From an uncultured delta proteobacterium (GTDB lineage Bacteria; Myxococcota_A; Polyangia; Polyangiales; Polyangiaceae): a stretch of 64,000 nucleotides of DNA. The notes beneath the pieces were generated by a model. The model saw only the letters and a program-made list of their open reading frames with translations, ran no database searches and had not been told where the DNA came from. Location of the stretch: the NCBI GenBank assembly GCA_963811985.1, contig CAWEUH010000059.1:21989-85988 (forward strand), read 5' to 3'. Shown one piece after another: positions 14,528 through 57,269 of the stretch. Each line of letters starts with the position of its first letter. Position 1 is the first letter of the stretch. Position numbers and translations under genes: made by a program.

Positions 14528-14680
14528 CACCCAGTTGATTCGACAACCGGCGGGCAACGCGAGCTGCGCAGGTCACGTCGAGGTCGACTGGCCGAAACTT
14601 CGCCGTATCGCGATTGATGGCGTGTGGGATTGAGGTGGACCCAGGAAAATTCGGGTTACGCATGCCGACAGAAAGGACAC

Positions 14681-14688
14681 GCTCTTGC
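14681..14688. repeat. 8-bp target-site duplication GCTCTTGC (right copy)
   Basis: See the left copy. Confidence 0.85.
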
Positions 14689-14906
14689 CCTGGGGCCGCG
14701 GGCACGACGGCTGCAGACTTCTGTGTGGGATCTTGAGCAATGACTCCGGGGTTGGAAACCGCCGCGTCCGGCGCATCCGGCAACGCGGACTCACCAAGCG
14801 CGCCGCTGACACGCATGAACAAGACGCCAAACAAAACCCATGTTGAGCAGCCAAGATTGATACGACGCAACATACTTCTCTCTTTAAACCTTCGAACGTA
14901 GTGCAA
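14689..14906 (-). pseudogene. 5' part (signal peptide and N-terminus) of the IS66-disrupted outer-membrane protein gene
   Basis: MLRRINLGCSTWVLFGVLFMRVSGALG signal peptide. The frame through the TSD (…APGQE) matches the frame of 10379..11075 on the other side of the IS. Confidence 0.6.
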
Positions 14907-15219
14907 TCAAGGGACATGTCCGCTCGCATCGAGACCAGGCACTGCAGCCCTGGCGTCGCGTGCGGCGAGATCGTGGGTTCGTCGGCGGTAGGCCGTCATT
15001 GCGTTCCAGTGACGACGTTCTTGCGAACCCATGTTCAATCCCGCGCGCAACGGACGGCATTTCCGGGTACGTTCTGCGCCCGTCTTGGCGCCGTCCTCCC
15101 TCCGGTGCTCGTCTAGGGTGAGTCCGTTGTGAGTCCGATCATCCTCTACCCCTCTGGTTGTCCGGGTAGGGGCATCTGGGCAAACCCCTAGCACTACTGC
15201 CGTAGGCTTCCCATCCGGC

Positions 15220-15669
15220 ATGATCGGCAAGCAGCTTGTCGTGCGGCGCATGAAGAATGGGCAGTATGTGCTGTCCGCGGCGCCCAATCATAAGCCGCGG
15301 GAATTGACGGGTGCCCAGAAGGAGCATTGTGAGAAGTTCCGCCAAGCGGTTCTGTTCGCCAAGACCGCGCAGAACACGCCCGAATACAAGGACGCGGCCG
15401 CCACACGCGGCCTATCCGCTTACAACGTTGCGGTTGCCGACTTCATGCACCGGCCGCAGATTCAGAAGGTCGACACGTCCGCGTACCAAGGCCATGCCAA
15501 CGAAACCATCACGATTACCGCTGTCGATGATGTCAAGGTCAAGACGGTTGGCGTTAGGATCGTCAATGATGATGGCACACACGTGGAAAAGGGCACGGCC
15601 GTTGTGCCGACGCCAGTACGAACGGTTGGCTATACACGACCAAGAACGCCGCAGATTCGGCTTCAGTGA
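15220..15669 (+). CDS. hypothetical protein (149 aa)
   Basis: ORF with balanced, Lys-containing composition unlike the surrounding GC-rich noise. No family recognised. Confidence 0.4.
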   Translation: MIGKQLVVRRMKNGQYVLSAAPNHKPRELTGAQKEHCEKFRQAVLFAKTAQNTPEYKDAAATRGLSAYNVAVADFMHRPQIQKVDTSAYQGHANETITITAVDDVKVKTVGVRIVNDDGTHVEKGTAVVPTPVRTVGYTRPRTPQIRLQ

Positions 15670-15768
15670 AGGTCGTCGTGGACGTTGCTGACTTGGCGGG
15701 ACAAGTTGCTGAAGTGACGGAGCACACTTAGGCTTCTGTTCAAGAAATCTCCAAATTGGCGACGCCAG

Positions 15769-15933
15769 GGCATCAGGCTCTTCTTCGCGCACGATCATCC
15801 TGAAGATTGTGCTCTTGCCCGATCCGTTTGGACCCACCAGGCCAATCTTCTCACCGTGATTGATCGCAAAGGAAGCATCCATGAACAGAATTTGCCGTCC
15901 GTGCTGCTTGGTCACCGAATCCAGTCGAATCAC
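15769..15933 (-). pseudogene. N-terminal ~55-aa remnant of an ABC-F-type ATPase (Walker A only)
   Basis: MIRLDSVTKQHGRQILFMDASFAINHGEKIGLVGPNGSGKSTIFRMIVREEEPD is followed by non-protein-like sequence. No Q-loop, signature or Walker B follows. Confidence 0.6.
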
Positions 15934-15952
15934 GGGACGCGACTTAGCACAA

Positions 15953-16640
15953 CTAGTGGGGCGACAGCCACTCGGGCCCCGCGCATTTTTCGCCTTCGGC
16001 CGCTACACCTTTGAGTGTCGCAACGACATCGAAGTCAACTTCCGGATCACCGTCTTGCGTGACTTCACTGCGGTCGGAGTTGAGCGCCATCACGTGAGTG
16101 CCGTCGAGCGGATCGATGAACAAATCGCGTCGGCGATAGGTGTCAATCATGCAGCCCAGGCACTCGGGCGCGCCGTGCTCAGCGCAATCCGGAGAGAACT
16201 CGCGGAAAAGGACTTCGTCGGTCACGATGACATGGAGCCAGGCGCCGCGCCGCGCCATCACGCTAGCCGTGGGGCCGTTACAGACGCCGCTCCCCATCTC
16301 CAACCCAAGCTCGTAGACGTCTAGCCCACCGTTACCAACGCGCGGCAGCACGACGAAATAGGCATCCTCGATGACGGCCAAGCACAGCGCAGGAGGCAAA
16401 ATCCGAACCGCCGTTGAAATCATCCGGTGCGTTCTGCCCGCCTTGCGGCGCTCCGTGCCACGCTGCCCAATCGGCAAAATGGCGCGGCACAATTGGCTTG
16501 GTTTCGACGTGAATCGGGCATAATGGCAGATTCGGGCGCGCAGGTTGCGTGCTCAGCTTCTCGTCGTGTGCCTCGGGCGACTTCATAATGGCGAATTCGG
16601 GCAACACGTTCGCGCGCGCACTCGCGTCCGGCGTGTTCAA
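15953..16640 (-). CDS. hypothetical protein, possibly frameshifted near ~16430 (ORFs 16332..16640 and 15953..16492 may be one gene)
   Basis: Both ORFs are protein-like on the same strand and their reading frames overlap. No family recognised. Confidence 0.3.
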
Positions 16641-17104
16641 CTACGGCGCGCCATGGCGCAGGCGGCGACGCCACAATGGTGCGGGGCTTGCAACTGCCAA
16701 CAGCCAGCAATCCTGCGGCCGCGAGCCAGCCGCGCCGCTGGTAAAAGCTCAGCATGCTACGTTTTCCCGTTCGAAGGGCGGTCATGACAGTCCATGCGAC
16801 ACTACTACCTGCGGCCGTCGCGCTCCAACGCAACCGCTGTTTTGATGTCGTTACGGCGCGCAAAGCCTGTTTGAGCTTGCTGGCGCCCCGTAGCGTGGCG
16901 GACTCGACGGCGGTTCGCCGTACCGATTGCGCTCAATCAGGATCCGCGGGGGATAGACGTTGGTCATTGGGCCTGCGTAAACGCCCGTACGCGTGCCGTC
17001 ACGCCATACCCAAAAAAGAGCTTGCCCGTCATGACCGCGCGTCTTTGGCAAGCCGAGAAGGTCATAAGGAAAGCGTCGGTCGTTTAATGCTAGCCTAGCC
17101 TGCC

Positions 17105-41733: not shown

Positions 41734-42741
41734 TCAACCGCTAATGCTATTGAGGCAGAAACTGTACGGAACCGAGTATAGGTCATCTCCTGGCACCAAT
41801 ATCATTACCTCCTGTAGCGGCTGACCCGAGTACCGCGTTCCCAGGCCGTCCCAGCAACTGGTGTTGAAGTTGGACCAAGGAATTGTCACTGCTTGATTAA
41901 AGGTGGTCATCGTCGCGCACCAACGATCCGTCGCGTCGGTGGCGGCGTTGGGCCCCTGGATTTGAACTCGCAACACCGAAGTGCCGTTGTTGCTCACGTT
42001 GACCGTCACACCGCCGGAGGATACTGAAGCGGGTGTCCAGGTTCCCTGTGCGGTGGCGCCCTTTGCCTGATTGATATTGTACCCAACGACAGCGATGCCA
42101 CTGTAGTCCAGCATGGGCCCAACGCTACCGGACACGCAAAAAGGCGTGCCTGGGGTATGCGATGTGAAGTCAATCGGAGTAATCGTCGATCCCGTGCCCG
42201 TTGCCAAATCCCACATGGTTCCGTTCCAGACGCCGCCAACGTAATACGCGCCGTCGCCCGAACTGGAACCACCAACGGAATCGGCTCCACCTACCGCTGG
42301 CGCACCCCCCGCGGCGTTGAGCGTTGTTGCACCGCCTGTCGCAGGCGGGACAAAAGTCGTGCCTCCCGTGGCTTGCTGGTTGGGTACGCCACCCGTGTCA
42401 CCCACGTTGGACGCGCCGCCCGTGACCGCTGCAGGCGCACCCCCCGTGGCCAGTTCATTCGGCGAGCCACCGGTGGCCTGCTGGTTCGGCGCGCCACCCG
42501 TATTCATGGCTGTAGCTGAGCCTCCGGTAGTGTCGCTGCTTGAATTGCCACCGACCTCTGACGCGGCGCCTGCCAGCGACGAGTTTCCGCCATTCGACGC
42601 ATTGCCTGCCGTACTGCTTGAACCCGCAACACCCAATACTCGATTGGCATTGCCGGCGTCACAGCCGCCCAGGGCAATGGCCATGGCCGAGCCGCTGATG
42701 AACGCGTTGAACCGAACGATCGTGCATATTGACATCATAGC
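41734..42741 (-). CDS. secreted lipoprotein with a Gly/Thr/Ala-rich linker and a C-terminal beta-rich domain (possible carbohydrate-binding module)
   Basis: Lipobox MMSICTIV...ALGGC. TGG/ATGG linker repeats. The C-terminal ~170 aa are rich in W/Y/N and Cys pairs. Confidence 0.6.
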   Translation of the reverse strand, partial: AMMSICTIVRFNAFISGSAMAIALGGCDAGNANRVLGVAGSSSTAGNASNGGNSSLAGAASEVGGNSSSDTTGGSATAMNTGGAPNQQATGGSPNELATGGAPAAVTGGASNVGDTGGVPNQQATGGTTFVPPATGGATTLNAAGGAPAVGGADSVGGSSSGDGAYYVGGVWNGTMWDLATGTGSTITPIDFTSHTPGTPFCVSGSVGPMLDYSGIAVVGYNINQAKGATAQGTWTPASVSSGGVTVNVSNNGTSVLRVQIQGPNAATDATDRWCATMTTFNQAVTIPWSNFNTSCWDGLGTRYSGQPLQEVMILVPGDDLYSVPYSFCLNSISG

Positions 42742-43038
42742 CATCGACAAAGCACGGTCCGTGCCGACGCTGAGAGCCACCGGAAACGGCAGATTTTAGC
42801 CCTCCGCGGCGTGCGCACACGGGCCCGCACACTGCGCGCACAGGTATCAAGGTAGGGAGACTGATGGGCAAGCCAGAAGCCCGATGGGATCAACGCCGCT
42901 TGATCCCGCTCTGTTGATCACTCGCGGCGGCTTTGGGATAGCCATAAGCCTGACGGGGTGGACGTCCGGCAACTGCCCATTGGATCCTACCCACGGTTCG
43001 TCTATCCTCCCAGACCATCATGACGCTCAACCCAGAGC

Positions 43039-44093
43039 TTGTCTCCAAGCTCGCAGCCAATTCGCGATGCGCTGTGGGAACGTCCCCATGCATTCTTGCC
43101 TGTGGTGGGCTCCGGGTTGTCGCGGCCTTGGCTCAAGTCTTGGGTCGAACTACTGGACCTGCTTGCTGCCGAATTGCCGCCGGACATGCAGAAGGAAGTC
43201 GCGAGCGAGATGGCAGCGCAGCGCTATCTGAATGTCGCGTCTGTCCTTGAGAGTACGTGCCCGGTGGGCGTTCGCGAGTGTAGTCGATTATCCAGCAACT
43301 TTACCAGCGTCCGAAGAGGCTGCGGCCGGCAGTTTACGATGCGTTGGTAAAGTTGCCAATCGAGCAATACGTCACTACCAACTACGACCCTTGGCTCAAG
43401 TGCGCTCTGCCGATGGCGCCCTGGTAACACTCCGCGAATCTACGCGCCACGCTTCAGGGTAGCTTTCCCGATACGCTCGCAGGTACTGCGCCGCTCGTAC
43501 TCATGGTGCACGGTGACGCTGACGAGCCCAGTACTTGTGTACTGAGCATGCGTGGCTATCGCAATTTGCTTTACGGTGCGCAGGCCTGGCGGGAAGGCAT
43601 GAAGCAACTGGTTGGGCAGCGAAAGCTTCTGTTCTTTGGGCATTCGCTTGCGGATCCGGACCTGACTGCGCTGCTCGATGAATGGCAGGCCGTGTTTGCG
43701 CCGAATAGTGGCCCGCCTCGACACTACCTATTCGGCGCGGGCATCTCTATCGTACGGCGGGAGCTCTTGATGGATCGCGGCGTCGAGCCCATCGACCACA
43801 ACGACCACGCGCTGCTACCCGAGATACTCGAATACCTCGTCAAACCCCCTGCCGGTCACGTGGCGGCGGTTGCCAGCGGCGTGCAAGCGGATATCCAAAA
43901 GTACTTAGTTCGCCTGATTGACGACACTCGCTATATTGACATTCAAGGGATTGGCACGCGGCATGGCCAGGGCAAAACCGCGCTCAGCTACCCGATTGAG
44001 GAGCTTTACACGCCGCTTCGCACGCGCGCCGGGCGCGACAGCGCGGGCACGCCGGGGCTCGAGTGCTTGGCTGAGCCCGCGATGAACTCGTGA
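43039..44093 (+). pseudogene. SIR2-like (defence-type SIR2_2) domain gene split into three frame segments by a frameshift (~43284) and an in-frame TAA (43425-43427)
   Basis: Segment 1 (frame 1): AFLPVVGSGLSRPWLKSWVELLDLLA, the GxGxS NAD-site start. Segment 2 (frame 0): RLRPAVYDALVKLPIEQYVTTNYDPWLK-TAA. Segment 3 (frame 0): APLVLMVHGD...LLFFGHSLADPDLTALLDEW. Together these make one SIR2-family domain. Confidence 0.7.
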
Positions 44094-44105
44094 GTCTCAT
44101 CGGAC

Positions 44106-46251
44106 GTGTTGCCCGGACATCGGCTGCTGTTGATTCAGGGCCAACCGGGAGCGGGCAAGACGACATTCTTACGGCTCGTGGCCTGCATGTTGGCCCGCGA
44201 CGCGCTCGGCATACCCGATCCTGAAGGCCAAGCCTGGGCTCAGCGAGTCTTGGGGCTCGAACCGGTCACGCCCGCGCCGACGCCCATCTTCCTGCGTGCG
44301 TCCCTGCTGGTGCTCCTGTTGAAAGCAATGCCATGCCCGCACGCCTTTGACCGCAGCGCGCTTGCGGCGTTCATCGAGCAGCTTTGCTGCGTGAATGACA
44401 GCGCGGTTCCCAGGCGCCATTGGGAGAAACTCCTCGAATCCGGGCAAGCACAATTGCTGCTCGACGGCGTCGATGAAGTCGCCGATCCTGAGTTGCGCAA
44501 CCGGCTTTTCGATTCGCTGCGCGACGCGGTTCGTCATTGGCCGTGCCCGGTCATCGTCAGCAGTCGCCCGCTTGAGACCGAGCGGCTTCTTGATATTGGG
44601 TTTTTTGGCGTCACGGTGGAGCCATTTCGGCGGCAAGAAATCGAAACCTTCGTGGGGCGTTGGGTCAAAGGCCTGCGCGCCACCGAAGACTTGGCGTTCA
44701 TCTCCGACAAAGCCGGACGCCATCGCACTGAGCTCGTCTCGGCCATTTTGCAGAGTCCGCAGATCCGCAGGCTTGCGGAAAACCCGGTCATGCTCACGTG
44801 CCTGTGCGTCGTGCACTTCAATGAAGGCAAGTTGCCGGACGGGCGCGCGCGCCTGTACAGCGCTGTCATGGAATGGCTCCTGAAGGCGCGAACCGAACGC
44901 CGCAAAGCAGCCGGCTACGGCGACGAGTTTGCGCGGCGCGCCTTTGCGCGCCTGGCGCTCGGCATGATGACCACAGCGCAAGGCAAGCGCAGCAGTAGCA
45001 GTTTCGGCGAGGCAACCCGCCTGCTATGCGCGGACTTGAAACGGCAGTTTCCCGATGAAGCTGAAGACCAAATCGGACGCACCGGCGAGCTATGGCTACA
45101 ATTCGAATGCGAGGCGAGCGGCATCATTCAAGAGCTGCCCGGGCGGCAACTGCGGTTCTGGCACTTGACGTTTCAAGAATACCTGGCAGCCCTTCAACTC
45201 AGTTGGCAATCATCCAGCAGCGACGGATGGTGGACAGACATCGTGAGCCAACACCTGCAAGACGCGCAATGGCGCGAGACCATCGAGGTGTTACCCGGTT
45301 GCCTGCTTGACGGACCGGGAATCGACTCGGTCGATGACTTGCTCAATCGGGTTGTGGCGCTCCTAGGCACGCGCGATGACTTGCCGAGCCAAGCGCGCCT
45401 AGCCGCGGTGCTGTCGCGCTTGCTCTTGCCGCTCAATGTGTACGAGTACAAGGTGCCACCCAGAATCAAGGCGGTATACGATGCGGCGCTCGAACGCTCG
45501 ATGGCGATATTCACGCTCGAGGGTGCCCGGCAGGTGCCCGTGAAAACTCGCATCGAAGTTGCCGAGGCGCTGGGGCGCGCCGGAGATCCGCGCCTGACGC
45601 CGGACAAAGACAATTTCATTTTGGTGCCGGGCACATCCGTGAGCCTGGGCAAATACCCCGTAACCGTCGAGGAATACCAGCGCTTCGTGGACGCGCGCGG
45701 CTACGAGCAGAGCAAGTATTGGTCGCCAGAGGCTTGGGCCGCGAAGACCGAGGCCCAATGGGTTGCACCCGGCGAATGGGAGCATCAGCTCCGCGCTCCG
45801 AATTGCCCCGTGGTAAACGTGTGCTTGGTATGAGGCGCAGGCCCATTGCGCCTGGCAGAGTGATCACCTAGGGCGAGCCATTCGACTGCCTACGGAACAG
45901 GAATGGCAAGCGGCGGCTGCCGCAGAAAAGGGCGAATACCCCTGGGGCGAACCAGAGCCCAACGAGGAGCTAGCCAACTTTGCGCCGAATTTCAAACCCA
46001 ACGTCGGACATCCAACACCCGTGGGCATCTACCCTGCAGGCAACGGTCGACATGGTCACTGCGACTTGGCGGGCAACGCACTCGAATGGTGCGAAGACTT
46101 GTACGACAGCAATGACGCAGGCCTCGTGCGTGTCGTTCGGGGTGGCGGTTGGTACGGCAACGCCCAGCTCTGTCGCTCTGCCTTCCGCGTCAGGGGGCAA
46201 TCGTCGCTCCACGCTGGTAACCTCGGTTTCCGTCTTGCCGCAGGTCAGTGA
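44106..46251 (+). CDS. NACHT/STAND NTPase with a C-terminal FGE-sulfatase (FGS) domain, frameshifted (+1 T) at ~45826. Starts 12 nt after an in-frame TGA that separates it from the SIR2 segments
   Basis: Walker A GQPGAGKTTFL at residues 11-21. Walker B LLLDGVDEV. The C-terminal FGS domain in frame 0 (YEQSKYWSPEAWAAKTE...NCPVVNVC) continues in frame 1 (WYEAQAHCAW...RLPTEQEW...YPWG...GNALEWCEDLYD...RVVRGGGWY...GFRLA) up to the stop at 46251. Confidence 0.75.
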
Positions 46252-46340
46252 GCAAGGGGCGCAGGATTGCGCCGTGGAAGGACCAAGGGCCGTCGTCGGC
46301 GGCGCGACGAGGGACGAGGAGCGCAAGCAAACGACGGCGT
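46240..46340. repeat. ~100-bp imperfect direct repeat, copy 1; copy 2 is at 47049..47147. Together they flank the DUF433/DUF5615 module
   Basis: Shared blocks are GGGGCGCAGG(G)ATTGC(G/A)CC, ...TGGAAGGA..., ...GGCGGCG...GCGCGA(CGA)GGGACGAGG(A/G)GCG(C/T)AAGCA...GCGGCG. Each copy begins immediately after a stop codon (46251, 47036) and contains a short GC hairpin. Confidence 0.55.
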
Positions 46341-46437: not shown

Positions 46438-46674
46438 ATGGCCTACTTGGTGTCGCGCATCTCGGTAGATCCGCAGATTTGCGGGGGGCAACCGTGCGTG
46501 CGCGGGTTACGAATTCCCGTATCGGTGGTGCTGAAGTACCTGGCGGCAGGAAAATCAACAGCGGATATCATCGACGAGCTTCCTGAACTCGAGGCAGAGG
46601 ATATCAACGATTGTCTCCGATACGCTGCCTGGCTGGCGTCAGGTCGCTCAATCGTACTGCCACCGGCTGCGTAA
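46438..46674 (+). CDS. DUF433-domain protein (antitoxin-like partner of DUF5615)
   Basis: DUF433 signature (PCVRGLRIPVSVVLKYLAAGKSTADII...NDCLRYAAW). Its stop overlaps the next start (TAATG). Confidence 0.8.
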   Translation: MAYLVSRISVDPQICGGQPCVRGLRIPVSVVLKYLAAGKSTADIIDELPELEAEDINDCLRYAAWLASGRSIVLPPAA

Positions 46675-47036
46675 TGAAGTACATCGCAGACGTAAACGTA
46701 TCTCGCAGGGTTGTTGAAAGCCTGAGAGCCTTGGGGTTTGACATAATCCGGGTGACGGAACTCCTTGATGCAAGGTCATCAGACCAAACGATTCTCTCGG
46801 AGGCAGCCAGACTCCACGCGGTTTTAATCAGTCACGACCACTTCGGTGCACTGCTTGCCATCACCGGCGCGACGTCACCTTCATTTGTCAATCTCCGTCT
46901 GTCCGAAGTTGACGCGACCCGGCTGGCGGCGAGCATTGAGCAGGTGCTCCGAGCAACGCATGAAGAGCTCTCTTCAGGCGCGGTGGTCACGTTGGACGAC
47001 AACGGCGTCCGTGTGCACCTCTTGCCATTAGCTTGA
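46674..47036 (+). CDS. DUF5615 (PIN-like) domain protein, toxin-like partner of DUF433
   Basis: MKYIADVNVSRRVVESLRALGFDIIRVTELL... is typical of DUF5615. The ATG overlaps the upstream stop by 1 nt. Confidence 0.8.
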   Translation: MKYIADVNVSRRVVESLRALGFDIIRVTELLDARSSDQTILSEAARLHAVLISHDHFGALLAITGATSPSFVNLRLSEVDATRLAASIEQVLRATHEELSSGAVVTLDDNGVRVHLLPLA

Positions 47037-47048
47037 TGCCACTCGACT

Positions 47049-47147
47049 GAAGTCAGGGGCGCAGGGATTGCACCCTGGAAGGAAGGGTCAGAAGCCGGCG
47101 GCGGTGGCGCGAGGGACGAGGGGCGTAAGCAGACTGCAGCGGCGCCA
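47049..47147. repeat. copy 2 of the ~100-bp direct repeat flanking the DUF433/DUF5615 module
   Basis: ~75-80% identical to 46240..46340. Starts right after the DUF5615 stop codon. Confidence 0.55.
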
Positions 47148-49243: not shown

Positions 49244-51049
49244 CTACGGAAACTGTACCAGCACCGGGACCCAACTTTCCACCGTTGAATTGTCGCCCAG
49301 CTGTCCGTAAGTGTTGTCACCCCAACATTGCACACCGCCGTGGACCAGCGCGCAGGCGTGCGTATTGCCTGCTGCGACGGCTGTCACACCAGAGGACAGG
49401 CCTTGGACCTGCACCGGCACTGAACTGTTTACGTTGCTGTTGTCACCCAGCTGACCGTTGGTGTTGTAGCCCCAGCATTGCGCTCCGCCGTTGACTAGCG
49501 CGCACGTTTCGGCACTACAGGCGGCAATGGCTGTCACGCCAGAAGTCAGACCCCAAACTTGAGTCGGAACCATTCTGTTTATCGTTGAATAGTCGCCTAG
49601 CTGACCGAAATCGTTTAGCCCCCAGCATTGCAGATCACCATTCGCTATTGCGCACGCCACGAAATAGCCGACAGCGATGGCCGAGACACCTGACGTGAGG
49701 CCCTGGACCTGAACCGGTACCATACTGATGGTTGTACTGTTGTTTCCGAGTTGGCCCATGTCGTTGTCGCCCCAGCATTGGACGCCGCCGTTGACGATTG
49801 CGCAAGTATTGAAGTACCCGGCCGAGATCGCGGTTACGCCTGAGGTGAGACCTTGGACCTGGACTGGTACCATACTGCCGTGCGTACTGTTGATGCCGAG
49901 CACACCATAACCGTTAAAGCCCCAGCATTGAGCGCTGCCGTTCACCAGTGCACACGTATGGTAAGCACCCGCCGCCAAGGCCGTCACCCTCGAGGAGAGG
50001 CCTTCTGCCTGAACCGGCACCAAGCTGTCGAGCGTACTGTTATTGCCGAGCTGACCGTTACCGTTACCCCCCCAGCACTGCACTCCACCGTTTGCCAACG
50101 CGCACGAGTGCGTGTAGCCAGTAGCGACAGCCGTCACTGAGGAGAGGCCTTTTACCTGAACCGGCACCAAGCTGTCGAGTGTACTGTTGTTGCCGAGCTG
50201 ACCGTACTGATTGTACCCCCAACATTGCACGCCGGATTCGAGCAAGGCACAACTGTGGTCACCCCCGCAGGCCAGGGCAGCTACGCAGCGCGCCGTTGGT
50301 ACGTCAGACCAACTGCTCAGCGAGAGGGCGGGCTGGCAGCTCTGGCAGGGATTGTTCGGGTTGGCAGCTCCAGCAATGTAGGCGACCCCGGCAATCGTGC
50401 AGATGGGCGAAATCGCAGACGTACCCCCTGCGCTGGTGGTACCGCCAGCCAAAGTGGCGCCGCCTGTTGACGGCATCCCCGCCGTGCCCCCTACGGCCGC
50501 ACTACCTCCGGTCGTGCTGCCCGCGTTGCCCCCTGAAGGTGATGTTCCTCCCGTAGCCCCACCGGTTGATTGGGTGCTGCCATTAGGCTTGGTCCCACCC
50601 GTGGCGACCGTGCCTCCAGTCGTTAACGTTCCGCCTGTCGCAACAGTGCCTCCAGTCGCAGACGTTCCGCCTGTCGCAACCGTGCCTCCAGTTGCCGGCG
50701 TTCCGCCTGTGGGTCTGTTTCCACCTGTCGCAACAGTGCCGCCGGTCGCCGTCTTGCCGCCTGTGGGTCTGTTTCCACCTGTTGCAACAGTGCCGCCGGT
50801 CGCCGGCAAGCCGCCCAAGTTCGGGTACCCACCTGTGCTCGCAATACCACCGGTAGCCGAGCCGCCTGTGTTGCTGGTGCCCCACGTGGACACGGTTCCA
50901 CCCGTTGCCCGCAAGTCCCCGGTGCCTTCAGAACCTCCGACAGGTGCAACACCGCCCATGCCAAGGTCAAACACGTCAAGCTCAGAGCGTGCGCCGCAAG
51001 CCATTGACGACAGGATTGCACAGAGGAACCACAGTTTGTGCCTAAGCAT
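49244..51049 (-). CDS. secreted RCC1-repeat (seven-bladed beta-propeller) protein with an N-terminal Gly/Thr-rich linker
   Basis: Lipoprotein-like signal. Long ATGGT/TGG linker. At least 7 RCC1-like repeats (CALxNGGVQCWGxNxxGQLG...VPVQVQGL). Confidence 0.8.
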   Translation of the reverse strand: MLRHKLWFLCAILSSMACGARSELDVFDLGMGGVAPVGGSEGTGDLRATGGTVSTWGTSNTGGSATGGIASTGGYPNLGGLPATGGTVATGGNRPTGGKTATGGTVATGGNRPTGGTPATGGTVATGGTSATGGTVATGGTLTTGGTVATGGTKPNGSTQSTGGATGGTSPSGGNAGSTTGGSAAVGGTAGMPSTGGATLAGGTTSAGGTSAISPICTIAGVAYIAGAANPNNPCQSCQPALSLSSWSDVPTARCVAALACGGDHSCALLESGVQCWGYNQYGQLGNNSTLDSLVPVQVKGLSSVTAVATGYTHSCALANGGVQCWGGNGNGQLGNNSTLDSLVPVQAEGLSSRVTALAAGAYHTCALVNGSAQCWGFNGYGVLGINSTHGSMVPVQVQGLTSGVTAISAGYFNTCAIVNGGVQCWGDNDMGQLGNNSTTISMVPVQVQGLTSGVSAIAVGYFVACAIANGDLQCWGLNDFGQLGDYSTINRMVPTQVWGLTSGVTAIAACSAETCALVNGGAQCWGYNTNGQLGDNSNVNSSVPVQVQGLSSGVTAVAAGNTHACALVHGGVQCWGDNTYGQLGDNSTVESWVPVLVQFP

Positions 51050-53086: not shown

Positions 53087-53545
53087 TTGCGCAATGGGTC
53101 GCGAAGCCCAGCTGATTTGCTGGGCCCCGGAGGTGCCAAGTCAGCTCAATCACGCAAACATTCGAAGACTCAAGCGCTCCTAGCCGAGCGTGCCTACGTT
53201 TTGCGGTGCAACCCTACCCGCTCGGAGCAGGTTCTCTGGCAAGAACTTCGCGCTAATCGGTTTGGAATTGCCTTTCGCCGGCAAGTGCCAATCGGCGGCA
53301 AGTACATTGCAGACTTCCTAGCCCCGTCAATCCGGCTGGTCATGGAAGTGGATGGCGGCGTTCATCGTCAGCGGCGTATTGCTGACGCCAGGCGTGATAG
53401 GAATATGAGGCGCCTGGGGTATTATGTCCTTCGTTTGGATGCGGAGGTTGTGCTCCGGAATTTGCCCGTTGCGGTCGAAATTGTTCGGGTGGCTGCCGCA
53501 GGGGCGGCACGGTCAGAACGGCTCGGCAATTGCCCGTCGCCGTGA
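53087..53545 (+). CDS. DUF559 domain protein (Vsr-like endonuclease fold)
   Basis: SEQVLWQELRANRFGIAFRRQVPIGGKYIADFLAPSIRLVMEVDGGVHRQ... is the DUF559 signature. Confidence 0.7.
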   Translation: MRNGSRSPADLLGPGGAKSAQSRKHSKTQALLAERAYVLRCNPTRSEQVLWQELRANRFGIAFRRQVPIGGKYIADFLAPSIRLVMEVDGGVHRQRRIADARRDRNMRRLGYYVLRLDAEVVLRNLPVAVEIVRVAAAGAARSERLGNCPSP

Positions 53546-53853
53546 CACAGCTCTACGGCATGAGGTCTTCGCGACTCGATGCGAACCACGCTCCCAACTG
53601 TGGCAGTTATTGCCTTATGCGGACCTGGATTTATCGAGATATGCCGCGATTGGGATCGGAGAATGTGCGAAGACATGGCACGGTGCGCGCGGCCAGTATT
53701 CGGATATACAGACCGGGGATTCTTGGGATAGGCTGATCGGGTCAATTACCAGTTGGGCAGACCGACGACTTGGACACAGTTCGACCTAGCACAACAGGGC
53801 CTAAGATTGCAATCTCGCAAGGCCAAACGCAGAGGAAACTGAAAGGGCTTTCG

Positions 53854-54212
53854 ATGTCAATCGGCGATAACGCTAAGGGCTTCCACGATGTGACCATAGT
53901 TGCAAGTAACGTTGACGAACTCCGTCGTTTCTACGGCGAGCTAGGATTCAGGCAAGTCGTCGATCGCGGTAATGACCTCGCCGTATTCCTCGTAGGTGCG
54001 AATGAGCTCGCTATTCATACTTCACCTACACGACCTACCAAGGCACTCGTGCTTTCTGTCCTCGTAGATGATCTGGAACCCATTCAACGCCAAGCCGCAG
54101 AACTTCGGGATCCAATTCGAAGGTCCCGCACCAACGCGACCTGGACTAATTGGAATCGCACTGCTCGATCCCAACGGAAACAAAATTGAGTTCCTGAAGC
54201 CCGACGCTAATT
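53854..54212 (+). CDS. VOC-family (glyoxalase/bleomycin-resistance fold) protein with an apparent 1-nt frameshift near 54103-54108
   Basis: The N-terminus is FHDVTIVASNVDELRRFYGELGF. The expected C-terminal motif ...GIALLDPNGNKIEFLKPDAN* is encoded in the +1 frame and ends at 54212. Confidence 0.65.
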
Positions 54213-54264
54213 GAATCCGCGTCCACGTGAGCCGCTTCATTGGGCGAACGATGGGACCAGCGCT

Positions 54265-54552
54265 CTATGCCGCAGAGTCGATGTTCTCGCGCACGATTCG
54301 CGGGTGACGTGCGGCGATGCGTAGCAAGGCTAGTCCAGGACCGTCCGGCTTCACCCTGTCCTGCTCCCAGTTGCGCAGGGTGTGAACACTGATACCGAGC
54401 GCCTCCGCGAATTGCTCCTGTGTCAGACAAATAAATCGTCGCAGCGCGGCTACATCGCCTGGCTCGAGGTTGCCCGCAATAATTCGCCTTCGTTGTGCTC
54501 GAGTCAGGGCTCGACTGAGTTCTTCTCGAGTTAGTTCTTCCCGGTCGTTCAT
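54265..54552 (-). CDS. brnA: BrnA-type antitoxin (HTH)
   Basis: MNDREELTREEL...LEPGDVAALRRFICLTQEQFAEALGISVHTLRNWEQDRVKPDGPGLALLRIAARHP. Overlaps the brnT stop by 4 nt. Confidence 0.8.
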   Translation of the reverse strand: MNDREELTREELSRALTRAQRRRIIAGNLEPGDVAALRRFICLTQEQFAEALGISVHTLRNWEQDRVKPDGPGLALLRIAARHPRIVRENIDSAA

Positions 54553-54839
54553 CGTAGACTCTCCACGTATTCGGCGTACAATTTCTCTTCGGTTTTGGTG
54601 GCCCACCAAGCGCTGATGATCCGTACGAGGTCGTCCGCGCGCTCCGTCCAGACAACCAATACCAACCCGCGCCTTATCGGTCCGATGGATTTGAACCTAT
54701 CCTCTGTCTCGCTGTGGTTGACGTCGTACACTTCCAAAACGGGTGCATCCGTGGTGAAAAGCTCGCTCGCTTCCTCGAAGGACACGTCGTGGAGGCGCCT
54801 GTTCCGCTCGGACTTCTCTGGGTCCCATTCGAAACGCAC
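54549..54839 (-). CDS. brnT: BrnT-type ribonuclease toxin (DUF497)
   Basis: MRFEWDPEKSERNRRLHDVSFEEASELF... is the DUF497/BrnT signature. Toxin-first BrnTA gene order. Confidence 0.85.
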   Translation of the reverse strand: MRFEWDPEKSERNRRLHDVSFEEASELFTTDAPVLEVYDVNHSETEDRFKSIGPIRRGLVLVVWTERADDLVRIISAWWATKTEEKLYAEYVESLR

Positions 54840-54946
54840 GCGTCATTATAAGCTATTAGCTTACATCGTCAAGTCACGCGGTGGACCGTGCCTACGGTTC
54901 CGGGAGAGCGCTCTTCCGAAGCTATGGCGCAGAGCCGCCCAACAAA

Positions 54947-55046
54947 CGCTTGCAGTTGGCGGCTTTGCCTGCTGGGGGGTCGTGGTCGTCGGTGGCAGTG
55001 GCTTCGCAACAATTGTACTGCCGCCGCCTGCTCTTGCGTTATGATG
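54947..55046. repeat. copy B of the ~100-bp conserved element (see 52304..52403)
   Basis: ~75% identical to copy A, with a conserved stem-loop and the conserved terminal TGCGTTATGATG. Confidence 0.5.
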
Positions 55047-55114
55047 GGTTTGGCCCGACTTGATGGGCCGCAACTGAGGCGCAAAGTCGTTATGCCTCTT
55101 TGCTGCCCCGGCCG

Positions 55115-55402
55115 TCACCGCTTACCCTCCACCAACCGCACCAAGGTGCCCGTGATGCGATTGACCCGATTGAGCGTCGAGCCGTCAAGCGCATGAACGT
55201 AACCAAAGGCCTGAGCCACCTCCAAACAGGAAAAACTCTCCCGCATGGAGCCAAGAGCGGAGTGGTAGCGGGCTGTGCGCAGCTCACCGCGGGAATACAT
55301 GCCTTCGGCCAAGTTCAAGGCGACGCTGCTGGAAGCGCGGCGCAGTTGCCGCCCGAGATCACGGTCACGACGCTCAACTTGAGCCAGCAAGGGCCGTAGC
55401 AC
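55115..55402 (-). CDS. four-helix-bundle protein (TIGR02436-like, '23S rRNA intervening-sequence protein' family)
   Basis: RQLRRASSSVALNLAEGMYSRGELRTARYHSALGSMRESFSCLEVAQAFGYV is characteristic of this family. Confidence 0.75.
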   Translation of the reverse strand: MLRPLLAQVERRDRDLGRQLRRASSSVALNLAEGMYSRGELRTARYHSALGSMRESFSCLEVAQAFGYVHALDGSTLNRVNRITGTLVRLVEGKR

Positions 55403-55467
55403 GCTGGTAGACTGGACAACGACGAGCAGAGGCAGGTCGCAAACTCGAAGTGACGACGAGAATTGTG

Positions 55468-55635
55468 GTCAGCGTGCAGAGTGCAGAGTGCAGCGTCAGG
55501 GTGGCACGGGTTGGGTGTTGTGGGGCGGGCATGGGGTGGAACGCGGGGCGTGACTCACCACACGACCCTCCCCACACAAGCCGCGCCACCCCCCACACGA
55601 CCCTCTGACGTTGCACACTGCACTCTGCACGCTGA
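55468..55635. repeat. large imperfect palindrome: 31-bp arms (55468-55498 and 55605-55635, 29/31 complementary) around a ~106-bp G-rich/C-rich spacer
   Basis: The left arm is TCAGCGTGCAGAGTGCAGAGTGCAGCGTCAG. The reverse complement of the right arm is TCAGCGTGCAGAGTGCAGTGTGCAACGTCAG. The right arm belongs to the 55557..55668 repeat copy. Confidence 0.5.
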
Positions 55636-55668
55636 TCTCAGTCGCGCAGCGACTTTGCAGTGCCGTTA
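55557..55668. repeat. copy 2 of the C-rich ~115-bp repeat (see 51069..51182)
   Basis: Manual alignment gives ~75% identity. Confidence 0.45.
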
Positions 55669-55673
55669 CCCGG

Positions 55674-57269
55674 CTACTTCTGCAATGTCGAGTTAACCAC
55701 GGTGGCACTTAGCGCATTGATCCCAAACGCGCTTCCAAGGTTCGTGACGCTGCCCTGTTGCAGTTGAGTCCAAGATCCGCCGGTGTTGCCCGTGATCGTC
55801 GTATCCCGAATCGTGATCGTGCCGGTCCAGTCGTTACTCGTCATGAACACGCCGCCGCCAAAGGCGTTGGTGCCCGCGGCGTTGCCAGTAATTGTGTCGC
55901 CACAAAGAATGATGTTTGTTGAGGAGCCGCCGTCTTGGTAAATGGCGCCGCCGTTGCCTCCGGAGCCGATTTCATTTTGGCCGTTGTTGATGACGGAGCA
56001 TTGCGTTGCGTCGTCGTTGTTGGCGTCATGCCCGGTGGCTTTGTTGTTTTGAAAGACACTGTTGTAGATGTCAAGTTCGGCGAAGAGGCCCCCGAGGGCA
56101 CCGGCGTTGGCGGCTTGGTTGCTGGTGAACGTGCTGCCGACAATGAGGGCACCGTGCTTGCTGCCAAGGATGTAGATGGCGCCGCCACCCGTGTCGGGCC
56201 CGAGAAGCGCGGCCTGGTTGTTCGAAAATGTGCAGTCGATGACCGTGAGGTTGCCATCGCGCATGTAAAGGGCTCCGCCCTCTCCGTCGTCGTAGCCTTG
56301 GGAGCACGGTGCGGGCGCCGTGGGAATCGCCTCTGTGGGCGTGGTCTTGCCGTTGACAAGCGTCAGATGTTGCAGGGTGACGCGTGTCTCGGTCGCCATG
56401 AAGTTGGCGCTGTTGTAGTTTAGAATCTGAACGCTCCCGCCGCCGTCGAGTGTGATCAAGTTGCCGCCGTCAATCACCGTGTTCTTGGTCGTCGGCAGAT
56501 TCATCGTCGCCGTTATTGCGATGGTTTTTGGTGCCGTGCCGCAGTTGAATGTGATGATGCCGCCCTTGGTCACGGCCGTGTTGAGCGAGCTGAATGTGCA
56601 ACTGTCCGCGGTTCCCGTACCAATCACAGACGTTGGGCTGGATACGTCAACCAGGGCGGCGCCTGCCGGCAAGGCAATCGAGCATTGGCCGGGGCTTGAA
56701 GAACCCGCCGTGCCGGTTGCGCCCCCTGTCGAAGACTTGCCTCCGGTCGTTTGAGTGCCGCCCGTCGCGTTCGCGCCCGCCGCCGCGGACTTGCCTCCGG
56801 TCGCTTGCGTGCCGCCCGTTGTATTCGCGCCCCCCGTCGCGGACTTGCCTCCAGTCGCATTCGCTCCGCCCGTCGATGGCTTGCCGCCCGCGGCATTAGC
56901 GCCACCGGTGCCAGACTTGGAGCCGCCGGTGGCATTAGCGCCGCCGGTGCCTGCGCCGCCTAGGCCTGCCTGGCCTCCAGTTGCCGCGTTGCCACCTGTG
57001 TCAGCGATCGAAGTCGTTGACGAGCTGCCACCCGTCGCTTCAGCGCCCCCTGTCGTACCTGACGAAGTCCCGCCCGTGTCGCCTGTGCTCGCGCCGCCCG
57101 TGTCACTGCCCACTGCGCTTGTGCCGCCCACTGCGCTTGTGCCGCCCACTGCGCTCGTTCCGCCCGCTGCGCCGGTGCCGGCGGGTGAGCCAGAACAGCC
57201 AGCCGTCAAGAGCAGTACTGCGAACGATACGGACCCGAGCTTTGGATGGACGGAGAGTGTGCTTTGCAT
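55674..57269 (-). CDS. secreted lipoprotein with a Gly/Thr/Ala-rich linker and a right-handed parallel beta-helix (pectate-lyase-like) domain
   Basis: Lipobox ...AVLLLTAGC. TGG/ATGG linker. Repeated NxxxGGxxxxxG and TITGN beta-helix rungs. Its C-terminus is duplicated at 52548..52790. Confidence 0.7.
   Translation of the reverse strand: MQSTLSVHPKLGSVSFAVLLLTAGCSGSPAGTGAAGGTSAVGGTSAVGGTSAVGSDTGGASTGDTGGTSSGTTGGAEATGGSSSTTSIADTGGNAATGGQAGLGGAGTGGANATGGSKSGTGGANAAGGKPSTGGANATGGKSATGGANTTGGTQATGGKSAAAGANATGGTQTTGGKSSTGGATGTAGSSSPGQCSIALPAGAALVDVSSPTSVIGTGTADSCTFSSLNTAVTKGGIITFNCGTAPKTIAITATMNLPTTKNTVIDGGNLITLDGGGSVQILNYNSANFMATETRVTLQHLTLVNGKTTPTEAIPTAPAPCSQGYDDGEGGALYMRDGNLTVIDCTFSNNQAALLGPDTGGGAIYILGSKHGALIVGSTFTSNQAANAGALGGLFAELDIYNSVFQNNKATGHDANNDDATQCSVINNGQNEIGSGGNGGAIYQDGGSSTNIILCGDTITGNAAGTNAFGGGVFMTSNDWTGTITIRDTTITGNTGGSWTQLQQGSVTNLGSAFGINALSATVVNSTLQK

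What the first reader, a model, noticed from the sequence alone, without database searches (positions are those of the whole stretch)
43039..46251. Degraded SIR2 / NACHT(STAND)-FGS locus resembling an NLR-like anti-phage defence gene
Three consecutive reading-frame segments encode a single SIR2-like domain: a GSGxS start, IEQYVTTNYDPWLK, and ...MVHGD...LLFFGHSLADPDL. Twelve nucleotides after an in-frame TGA follows a NACHT/STAND NTPase with Walker A GQPGAGKTT and Walker B LLLDGVDEV. Its C-terminus is a formylglycine-generating-enzyme/sulfatase-modifying (FGS) domain, a known C-terminal sensor of bacterial STAND proteins. SIR2 effector plus STAND NTPase plus C-terminal sensor is the architecture of bacterial NLR-related/Avs-like immunity proteins. 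The SIR2 + NACHT + FGS combination may be an undescribed variant. The locus carries two in-frame stops (TAA 43425-43427, TGA 44091-44093) and at least two frameshifts (~43284, and +1 T at ~45826). It is therefore either a decaying pseudogene or, if the indels are sequencing errors, a two-gene SIR2 + NACHT-FGS system.
Basis: partly seen in the sequence, partly recalled or inferred. Interest (0 to 1): 0.8.

Follow-up and report, generated by a model that had tools for sequence, protein, structure and literature searches.

The report
Broken SIR2-NACHT-FGS immune-receptor pseudogene
This is the decayed remnant of one bacterial "NLR-like" immune gene (NAD-destroying SIR2 effector, NACHT switch, lectin-fold FGS sensor) of a type that has been catalogued but not tested, so it is a correct but ordinary finding.

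Summary
Window 43020-46251 (+) encodes SIR2_2 (E 5e-15), NACHT (31 bits, above Pfam's cut-off) and FGE-sulfatase/FGS (E 2e-41) once the frame is repaired.

Intact single-chain homologues of 1050-1277 aa, 53-61% identical over 97-100% of the length, carry the same three domains. The locus is therefore one fused gene, not a SIR2 gene plus a NACHT-FGS gene. The TGA at 44091 lies inside a linker that is continuous in every homologue.

Frameshift-aware alignment to six homologues finds more damage than reported:
- five frameshifts (~43053, ~43266, ~43416, ~43452, ~45825);
- the TGA, plus a probable in-frame TAG at 43281;
- the reported TAA (43425) sits in a 36-nt stretch whose ancestral frame is different.

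Other long ORFs in the window are intact, so a real pseudogene is much more likely than sequencing error.

The architecture is not undescribed. Kibby et al. Table S1 lists a SIR2_2+NACHT+FGE-sulfatase protein in NACHT clade 1. Kaur et al. 2021 describe STAND-FGS receptors with swapped effectors.

The inferred ancestral mechanism is FGS ligand sensing, then NACHT oligomerisation, then SIR2 NAD+ depletion. No diversity-generating retroelement (DGR) is present here.

Verdict: a new, dead member of a known kind; low interest.

The parts
43020..46251 (+). Whole pseudogene: remnant of one SIR2-NACHT-FGS gene. The repaired product is 1075 aa.
   Evidence: tblastn and frameshift-aware alignment to intact homologues P0001-P0006. 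Alignment A1 shows 53-61% identity. Pfam hits.
43020..43889 (+). SIR2 (SIR2_2) NADase effector remnant. It is read in five frame segments: 43020-43052 (frame 0), 43054-43269 (frame 1), 43269-43415 (frame 0), 43417-43452 (frame 1), and 43455 onward (frame 0).
   Evidence: Pfam SIR2_2 E 4.7e-15. PADLOC ThsA E 2.6e-15 and LmuA E 5e-13. PDB ThsA 6lhx E 1.3e-10, with the ThsA N112 and H152 positions aligned to N of TTNYD (43380-43382) and H of MVHGD (43509-43511).
43053..43056 (+). Frameshift 1: one extra base, frame 0 to frame 1.
   Evidence: The frameshift-aware alignment places it at 43053-43056 for P0001 and P0003-P0006.
43258..43269 (+). Frameshift 2: one base missing, frame 1 to frame 0.
   Evidence: tblastn segments join at 43266-43269 for all six close homologues. 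The frameshift-aware alignment places it at 43249-43288.
43281..43283 (+). TAG stop in the probable ancestral frame, inside the conserved motif G-R-x-R-V-[ILMC].
   Evidence: Five of six homologue alignments read GRSRV*SIIQQLY against GRPRVISKIEELF and similar sequences.
43416..43454 (+). Frameshifts 3 and 4 (+1 at ~43416, -1 at ~43452). They bracket a 36-nt stretch whose ancestral frame is frame 1 (RPGNTPRIYAPR).
   Evidence: All six close homologues choose this detour despite two frameshift penalties. P138, R139 and P143 are invariant columns of A1.
44091..44093 (+). TGA nonsense codon in the linker between the conserved YPIEELYTPLRTR stretch and the P-loop.
   Evidence: It aligns to W389 of P0001 and to L or R in the others. 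The homologues are continuous here.
43890..45600 (+). NACHT NTPase module with its helical and winged-helix extension. Walker A GQPGAGKTT lies at 44139-44165 and Walker B LLLDGVDEV at 44454-44480.
   Evidence: Pfam NACHT 31 bits, above the 26.7 cut-off. In the AlphaFold model of homologue P0001 this region matches NLRC4 4kxf (E 5.6e-11, ~600 aligned columns).
45822..45828 (+). Frameshift 5: one extra base, most simply one T of the TT at 45825-45826 (frame 0 to frame 1). It cuts the FGS domain. Frame 0 stops at 45831-45833.
   Evidence: tblastn segments join at 45820-45829 for all homologues. The frameshift-aware alignment agrees. The repaired reading PVVNVCWYEA matches the homologues' PVV.VSWYEA.
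45642..46248 (+). FGS (FGE-sulfatase, C-type-lectin fold) putative sensor domain.
   Evidence: Pfam FGE-sulfatase E 2.2e-41. PDB sequence matches are EgtB, PorK, SUMF2, ToxD and the DGR target TvpA. The family consensus has no conserved Cys between GGSW and RSAxR.

Best explanation
The locus is a non-functional remnant (pseudogene) of a single gene. That gene encoded a tripartite NLR-like protein of the NACHT-FGS family (clade 1 of Kibby et al.): an N-terminal SIR2 NADase effector, a central NACHT NTPase, and a C-terminal non-catalytic FGS lectin-fold sensor.

Inferred ancestral mechanism: the FGS domain binds an invader-derived (or guarded host) ligand. The NACHT module then exchanges nucleotide and oligomerises. 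That brings the SIR2 domains together and switches on NAD+ hydrolysis, which stops growth or kills the infected cell.

What is shown here: the domain identities, the single-chain architecture in relatives, conservation of the SIR2 N/H positions and of Walker A/B, and the lesions. What is inferred: ligand sensing, oligomerisation, NADase activation and a defence role. These rest on ThsA, DSR2, Avs5 and bNACHT precedents.

In this genome the gene has five frameshifts and one or two premature stops. Translation from ATG 43020 stops at about 43246-43248. Neither effector nor sensor can be made, so it does nothing now.
For: - Domains: Pfam SIR2_2, NACHT and FGE-sulfatase on the repaired translation.
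- One gene: intact one-chain homologues P0001-P0006 are 53-61% identical over 97-100% of the query. Eleven of the 120 listed hits have PF13289+PF05729+PF03781. They align through the TGA.
- Effector swapping: the same NACHT-FGE core carries Metallophos, DUF4062, TIR, Mrr or SEFIR instead of SIR2. This is the pattern reported for clade 1 and by Kaur et al. 2021.
- Lesion map.
- SIR2 catalytic positions: the window N and H align with ThsA N112 and H152.
- Structure: the model of P0001 (pLDDT 84.9) matches DSR2, EfAvs5 SIR2-STAND (9jap, E 1.2e-11), NLRC4 (4kxf), EgtB and ToxD, and ThsA, domain by domain.
- Real decay rather than poor sequence: the window holds many intact ORFs of 450-790 aa. At the local indel density of 5 per 3.2 kb these would almost never survive.
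- Resident, probably recently inactivated gene: the codon-position GC of the reconstructed frame (0.67/0.46/0.71) equals that of intact neighbours. There is no excess of unique substitutions at otherwise invariant columns (7.5% against 2-12% in the homologues).
Against: - No reads are available, so local assembly error cannot be formally excluded.
- Four of the five frameshifts form +1/-1 pairs, and the conserved motifs are all preserved. That is also what a locally mis-polished intact gene would look like.
- No member of the NACHT-FGS clade has been tested experimentally. Dore et al. 2024 say so, and the clade-1 rows read in Kibby Table S1 carry no bNACHT designation. The defence role and the NADase mechanism are therefore inferred.
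- PADLOC models recognise only the SIR2 part.
Confidence: 0.82

Rival explanations
1. The gene is intact in the organism, and the indels and stops are local sequencing or assembly errors.
For: - The frameshifts alternate +1/-1.
- The coding signature and conserved residues are fully preserved.
- The source genome was not found in the collections, so its quality is unknown.
Against: - Two lesions are base substitutions creating stops (TGA 44091, TAG 43281), and these are not typical consensus errors.
- The indels sit in runs of at most 3 identical bases, not in long homopolymers.
- The remaining ~60 kb carries many unbroken ORFs of 1.4-2.4 kb.
- The SIR2_2 and NACHT scores are lower than in the intact homologues: 56 against 62-77 bits, and 31 against 39-45 bits.
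Confidence: 0.1
2. It is a two-gene system: a free-standing SIR2 gene ending at TGA 44091, followed by a NACHT-FGS gene starting at GTG 44106.
For: A 575-codon ORF (44106-45833) begins 12 nt after the TGA.
Against: - All close homologues are single chains that are continuous across this point.
- The GTG ORF would place the P-loop at residue ~12. It would lack the conserved stretch just upstream (YLxxLxxxTxHIxIxGI...YPIEELYTPLR), which is also present in family members with other effectors.
- The SIR2 part is itself broken by four frameshifts, and the FGS part by one.
Confidence: 0.02
3. There is residual function: the 575-aa NACHT-only ORF (44106-45833) is still expressed. It would act as an effector-less regulator or as a dominant-negative partner of paralogous NACHT-FGS proteins.
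For: - The NACHT-helical region is the least damaged part. There are two lesions in ~2.8 kb, against five in the first 435 bp (binomial p ~7e-4, a post hoc test).
- Genomes often hold several NTPase-FGS paralogues (P0003 and P0004 come from the same metagenome-assembled genome).
Against: - There is no Shine-Dalgarno-like sequence before GTG 44106.
- The N-terminal stretch before the P-loop and most of the sensor are missing.
- No paralogue lies in the 64-kb window.
- No expression data exist.
Confidence: 0.05

Closest known systems
Bacterial NACHT (bNACHT) clade 1, NACHT + FGS/FGE-sulfatase proteins (Kibby et al. 2022/2023, Table S1, e.g. TAH48128.1 SIR2_2+NACHT+FGE-sulfatase); STAND-FGS systems of Kaur et al. 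2021
   Same: The three-domain order and sizes are identical: SIR2_2, NACHT, FGE-sulfatase, about 1060 aa. The same family-wide swapping of N-terminal effectors is seen (calcineurin/Metallophos, TIR, SIR2 and others).
   Different: This copy is a pseudogene. It comes from a lineage related to Polyangiaceae, not Chloroflexi. It has no associated DGR. Placement in the clade-1 tree was not computed here.
Avs5 (SIR2-STAND antiviral protein, EfAvs5; PMC11897194)
   Same: It has an N-terminal SIR2 NADase fused to a STAND NTPase and a C-terminal sensor. The fold-level match of the homologue model to 9jap_A has E 1.2e-11. It is the best-characterised working model: activator-induced assembly switches on NAD+ hydrolysis.
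   Different: There is no sequence-level match. EfAvs5 is absent from the PDB sequence hits, and no Avs model appears among the PADLOC hits. The NTPase here is a Pfam NACHT. The sensor is an FGS lectin-fold domain, whereas the Avs5 sensor clusters with SAMD9.
Thoeris ThsA and DSR2 SIR2 NADases
   Same: The SIR2 domain is closest in sequence to ThsA (6lhx, E 1.3e-10; PADLOC ThsA E 2.6e-15), and the N112/H152 positions are conserved. DSR2 is the top fold match.
   Different: No SLOG/STALD domain was detected. No TIR hit was found among the neighbouring ORFs scanned. The C-terminal region is unlike that of DSR2. Activation would come through a fused NACHT rather than a cyclic ADPR signal or tail-tube binding.
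DGR-diversified C-type-lectin/FGS receptors (TvpA; Thiohalocapsa STAND-CLec targets, Dore et al. 2024)
   Same: The FGS domain matches TvpA (2y3c). One homologue (P0006) lies beside RVT_1 + bAvd and a second NACHT-FGE gene.
   Different: There is no template-repeat copy of the FGS 3' end in the 64-kb window, nor within 10 kb of P0002, P0003 or P0004.

Membership tests
Bacterial NACHT / NLR-related proteins (Kibby clade 1, NACHT-FGS) | NACHT NTPase module with Walker A (GxxGxGKT) and a NACHT-type Walker B (hhhhDGxDE) | tested here: met
   Pfam NACHT scores 31 bits, above the 26.7 cut-off. GQPGAGKTT lies at 44139-44165 and LLLDGVDEV at 44454-44480. The homologue model matches NLRC4.
Bacterial NACHT / NLR-related proteins (Kibby clade 1, NACHT-FGS) | C-terminal FGS/FGE-sulfatase 'antigen-receptor type' sensor | tested here: met
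   Pfam FGE-sulfatase E 2.2e-41 at repaired residues 874-1072.
Bacterial NACHT / NLR-related proteins (Kibby clade 1, NACHT-FGS) | N-terminal effector fused in the same polypeptide | tested here: met
   SIR2_2 is present. The homologues are single chains across the SIR2/NACHT junction.
Bacterial NACHT / NLR-related proteins (Kibby clade 1, NACHT-FGS) | Placement inside clade 1 of the published NACHT phylogeny | not tested
   No tree was built with the published sequences. Membership is inferred from the identical architecture (TAH48128.1) and the shared effector repertoire.
Bacterial NACHT / NLR-related proteins (Kibby clade 1, NACHT-FGS) | Protection against phage | not testable with these tools
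   No clade-1 protein among the Table S1 rows read carries a bNACHT designation. STAND-CLec proteins are described as 'not yet experimentally characterized'.
Functional protein-coding gene | Uninterrupted reading frame | tested here: not met
   There are five frameshifts and one or two premature stops.
Avs5 (SIR2-STAND) | Sequence membership in the Avs5 family, including its sensor | tested here: not met
   No Avs model appears among the PADLOC hits. EfAvs5 is not among the PDB sequence hits, even with a profile. Only a fold-level match exists. The sensor is FGS.
Thoeris (ThsA/ThsB) | SIR2 fused to a SLOG/STALD signal-binding domain, with a TIR ThsB partner | tested here: not met
   Only the SIR2 part of the ThsA models matches (profile positions 26-222 of 478). 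None of the neighbouring ORFs scanned gave a TIR hit.
DGR target gene | Variable repeat at the 3' end with a nearby template repeat, reverse transcriptase and Avd | tested here: not met
   A low-stringency blastn of 45600-46320 against the whole window finds no second copy of the coding region. Window ORFs were not scanned exhaustively for a reverse transcriptase.
Formylglycine-generating enzyme (SUMF1/FGE) as a catalyst | Catalytic cysteine pair in the C-terminal loop (Cys336/Cys341 in human FGE; recalled from memory) | tested here: inconclusive
   The family consensus RGGSWxxxAxxxRSAxR has no conserved Cys. The best matches are non-FGE members of the fold: the EgtB C-domain, PorK, SUMF2 and TvpA. 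No residue-level alignment to FGE was printed.
EruA (NCBIfam NF058535, NACHT antiphage protein) | Score above the equivalog cut-off | tested here: not met
   The score is 28 bits against a cut-off of 1000.

The most novel reading that the evidence does not exclude
The damage is not random. Five of the seven lesions fall in the first 435 bp, within the SIR2 NADase domain. This might reflect selection to disarm a self-toxic effector, or a local mutational hotspot. The NACHT core would then persist for a while as an effector-less module that could still interact with paralogous NACHT-FGS receptors. More broadly, the Polyangiaceae-related SIR2-NACHT-FGS subgroup (P0001-P0006) is an untested lectin-sensor NLR that could act in phage defence or in kin discrimination in multicellular bacteria.
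Probability: 0.1. Interest if true: 0.35.

Novelty: new member of a known kind. Interest (0 to 1): 0.15.

Why it matters
It matters little in itself. It adds a dead copy to a family already catalogued by comparative genomics.

It has two minor uses:
- It shows that NLR-like SIR2-NACHT-FGS genes are gained and lost in a lineage related to myxobacteria, which fits the fast turnover expected of costly immune genes.
- The intact relatives found here (P0001-P0006) are candidates for the first experimental test of an FGS-sensor NLR, a class with no functional data.

Tried and rejected
- **Two-gene reading:** rejected by the homologue alignments.
- **DGR diversification of the FGS domain:** no template or variable repeat pair was found in the window or near P0002, P0003 or P0004. 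Only P0006 has RVT_1 + bAvd next door.
- **Finding the source genome or a syntenic orthologue:** the genome-contig scan returned only two non-syntenic loci (55-57% identity) in one uncultured Polyangiaceae metagenome-assembled genome, plus an unrelated SIR2. An exact look-up of the neighbouring DUF433 protein found nothing. The neighbours share no synteny apart from RCC1-repeat genes.
- **Phase variation or programmed frameshifting:** the frameshift sites have no repeat tracts longer than 3 bases.
- **Recoding of TGA:** the gene's own terminator is TGA (46249-46251). Nothing else examined here suggests that TGA is read as sense in this genome.
- **Excess amino-acid decay:** not detected.
- **PDB sequence search of the NACHT part:** no hit, even with a profile. 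Fold search was needed.
- **'EruA' in the literature:** no paper found.
- **RNA genes:** no tRNA or Rfam hit in the window.
Full report
**1. What is in the sequence**

- VVGSGLS, TTNYDPWLK and MVHGD...FFGHSLADPDL;
- an in-frame TGA at 44091-44093, followed 12 nt later by GTG;
- GQPGAGKTT and LLLDGVDEV;
- a C-terminal FGE-sulfatase-like sequence that continues in another frame after ~45825.

On a conceptually repaired translation, Pfam gives FGE-sulfatase at E 2.2e-41 and SIR2_2 at E 5e-15. NACHT scores 31 bits, above the gathering cut-off of 26.7.

PADLOC recognises only the SIR2 part (ThsA E 2.6e-15, LmuA E 5e-13). NCBIfam recognises only generic FGE-fold families, plus a sub-threshold EruA NACHT match of 28 bits against a cut-off of 1000.

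**2. One gene, not two**

A search of 5.8 billion proteins returned intact single-chain proteins with exactly SIR2_2+NACHT+FGE-sulfatase.
- P0001-P0006 are 1050-1277 aa, cover 97-100% of the query, and are 53-61% identical in the MAFFT alignment A1.
- P0008, P0018, P0027, P0057 and P0098 have the same architecture at lower identity.

tblastn of these proteins against the window gives three collinear segments that run straight through both reported stops.

The TGA falls in a poorly conserved linker. Upstream lies the conserved stretch ...IQGIGTR.G.GK.AL.YPIEELYTPLRTR..., and downstream lies the P-loop. That upstream stretch is conserved in 45 family members regardless of effector. I therefore treat it as part of the NACHT-side linker and not as the tail of a separate SIR2 protein.

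The remaining hits share the NACHT-FGE core but carry Metallophos, DUF4062, TIR, Mrr or SEFIR at the N-terminus. This is classic effector swapping.

**3. Lesion map**

I wrote a protein-to-DNA dynamic-programming alignment that allows frameshifts, and ran it with the six closest homologues. The consensus is:
- start at ATG 43020 (MTLNPELVSKL);
- +1 at 43053-43056;
- -1 at ~43258-43269;
- TAG 43281-43283 in frame (5 of 6 alignments: GRSRV*SIIQQLY against GRPRVISKIEELF);
- +1 at 43416-43419 and -1 at 43450-43453, bracketing RPGNTPRIYAPR, which matches the conserved R-L-G-x-A-P-R-V-Y-G/A-P;
- TGA 44091;
- +1 at 45822-45828.

That makes five frameshifts and one or two premature stops. The TAA at 43425 lies in the 36-nt detour and is out of the ancestral frame.

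Translation from ATG 43020 in frame 0 terminates at about 43246-43248. No effector or sensor can be made.

**4. Real decay or sequencing error?**

No reads are available. Several observations argue against error:
- The window carries many unbroken ORFs of 450-790 codons. This is incompatible with a general indel rate of ~1.5 per kb.
- Two lesions are substitutions that create stops.
- The indels are not in long homopolymers.
- The SIR2_2 and NACHT scores are somewhat lower than in intact homologues: 56 against 62-77 bits, and 31 against 39-45 bits.

Other observations point to a recently inactivated resident gene:
- The reconstructed frame keeps the codon-position GC pattern of intact neighbours (0.67/0.46/0.71).
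- The repaired protein shows no excess of unique changes at otherwise invariant columns (7.5%, against 2-12% for the homologues).

Five of the seven lesions lie in the first 435 bp (binomial p ~7e-4, a post hoc test). I have no tested explanation for this clustering.

**5. Mechanism of the ancestral gene (inferred)**

- *SIR2.* The domain is closest in sequence to ThsA, KomC and FAM118B. The window Asn (TTNYD) and His (MVHGD) align with ThsA N112 and H152. From my knowledge of the Thoeris literature, these are the catalytic residues of that NADase.
- *Whole protein.* An AlphaFold2 model of P0001 (pLDDT 84.9, pTM 0.70) matches solved structures domain by domain. The matches are DSR2 and ThsA (SIR2), EfAvs5 SIR2-STAND (9jap_A, E 1.2e-11), NLRC4 (4kxf, ~600 columns), and EgtB and ToxD (FGS fold).
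- *FGS.* The FGS consensus lacks any conserved Cys where FGE has its catalytic pair (the FGE residues are recalled from memory). The domain also matches the DGR target TvpA. This fits a binding role rather than a catalytic one, as proposed by Kaur et al. 2021 and Kibby et al..

The most likely mechanism is ligand binding by FGS, then NACHT oligomerisation, then SIR2 NAD+ hydrolysis and abortive infection. This parallels Avs5, where filament assembly activates the NADase. None of these steps is shown for this clade.

**6. Context**

- *No DGR.* No second copy of the FGS 3' region exists in the window, nor within 10 kb of P0002, P0003 or P0004. P0006, however, sits next to RVT_1 + bAvd and a second NACHT-FGE gene.
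- *Neighbours in the window.* Upstream are a GT2-methyltransferase and a Gly/Thr-rich protein. Downstream are a DUF433/DUF5615 toxin-antitoxin-like pair and an RCC1-repeat lipoprotein. No recognised defence-system protein was found among the neighbouring ORFs scanned.
- *Source.* The nearest genomic loci are two non-syntenic paralogues in one uncultured Polyangiaceae metagenome-assembled genome. The source genome itself was not found.

**7. Comparison with what is known**

- Kibby et al. define FGS domains as one of two 'antigen receptor-type' sensors of bacterial NACHT proteins, and list SIR2 among the effectors.
- Their Table S1 places the NACHT+FGE-sulfatase proteins in clade 1, including TAH48128.1 annotated SIR2_2+NACHT+FGE-sulfatase.
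- Kaur et al. 2021 describe the STAND-FGS combination with displaced N-terminal effectors and frequent DGR association.
- A 2026 survey again lists FGE-sulfatase sensors among STAND sensors.
- Dore et al. 2024 state that STAND-associated CLec sensors are untested.

The architecture is therefore catalogued but not experimentally characterised. This locus is not a member of Avs5, Thoeris or EruA (see the membership table).

**8. Verdict**

This is a dead new member of a known kind, of low interest.

Noticed in passing
window 46438-47036 (+), with repeats at 46253-46340 and 47053-47140: An overlapping DUF433 (E 2e-24) and DUF5615/PIN-like (E 1e-16) gene pair lies immediately downstream of the pseudogene. 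It is probably a type II toxin-antitoxin module. It is flanked by an ~85-nt imperfect direct repeat (core AGGGGCGCAGGGATTGC..TGGAAGGA), which suggests insertion as a cassette.
   Followed up: partly
window 15412-15933 (-), within the ORF-poor stretch 14500-17100: An ORF matches only the first 36 positions of Pfam ABC_tran (...[28 protein letters not shown]). Similarity then ends in all three frames. This is apparently a truncated ABC-F-type ATPase remnant, and so a second gene relic in the window.
   Followed up: partly
window 49244-51049 (-); L004 14291-15403; L007 6673-8169: An RCC1-repeat protein lies about 2-3 kb from the SIR2-NACHT-FGS gene in the window. In the window it has a lipoprotein-like N-terminus. 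The same is true at both Polyangiaceae loci (27-32% identity). This could be chance, if such repeat proteins are as common in these genomes as I recall. Their frequency was not checked.
   Followed up: no
JGI sample 3300075153 contig carrying P0006 (no DNA held): This SIR2-NACHT-FGE homologue is flanked by RVT_1 + bAvd (a DGR cassette), by a 1537-aa protein with Metallophos, NACHT, TIR_2 and FGE-sulfatase hits (order not determined), and by an AAA_15/AAA_21 + DUF4276 pair and an HNH gene. This is a defence-island-like context that is absent from the window.
   Followed up: no
P0003 and P0005 (residues 1-~190); window 42931-43020: Two homologues carry an extra N-terminal extension of ~160-190 aa, of unknown type, ahead of SIR2. 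The window shows only a faint, frameshifted trace of similarity upstream of ATG 43020. It is unclear whether the ancestral gene was longer.
   Followed up: no
window 53087-53545 (+): An intact 152-aa DUF559 (Vsr-like endonuclease domain) ORF, E 3e-24, lies in an otherwise ORF-poor stretch from 53100 to 55700.
   Followed up: no
window 41734-42780 (-) and 49244-51049 (-): Both predicted proteins contain long Gly/Thr/Ala-rich 'ATGG(T/S)' low-complexity linkers. The first has no Pfam domain.
   Followed up: no
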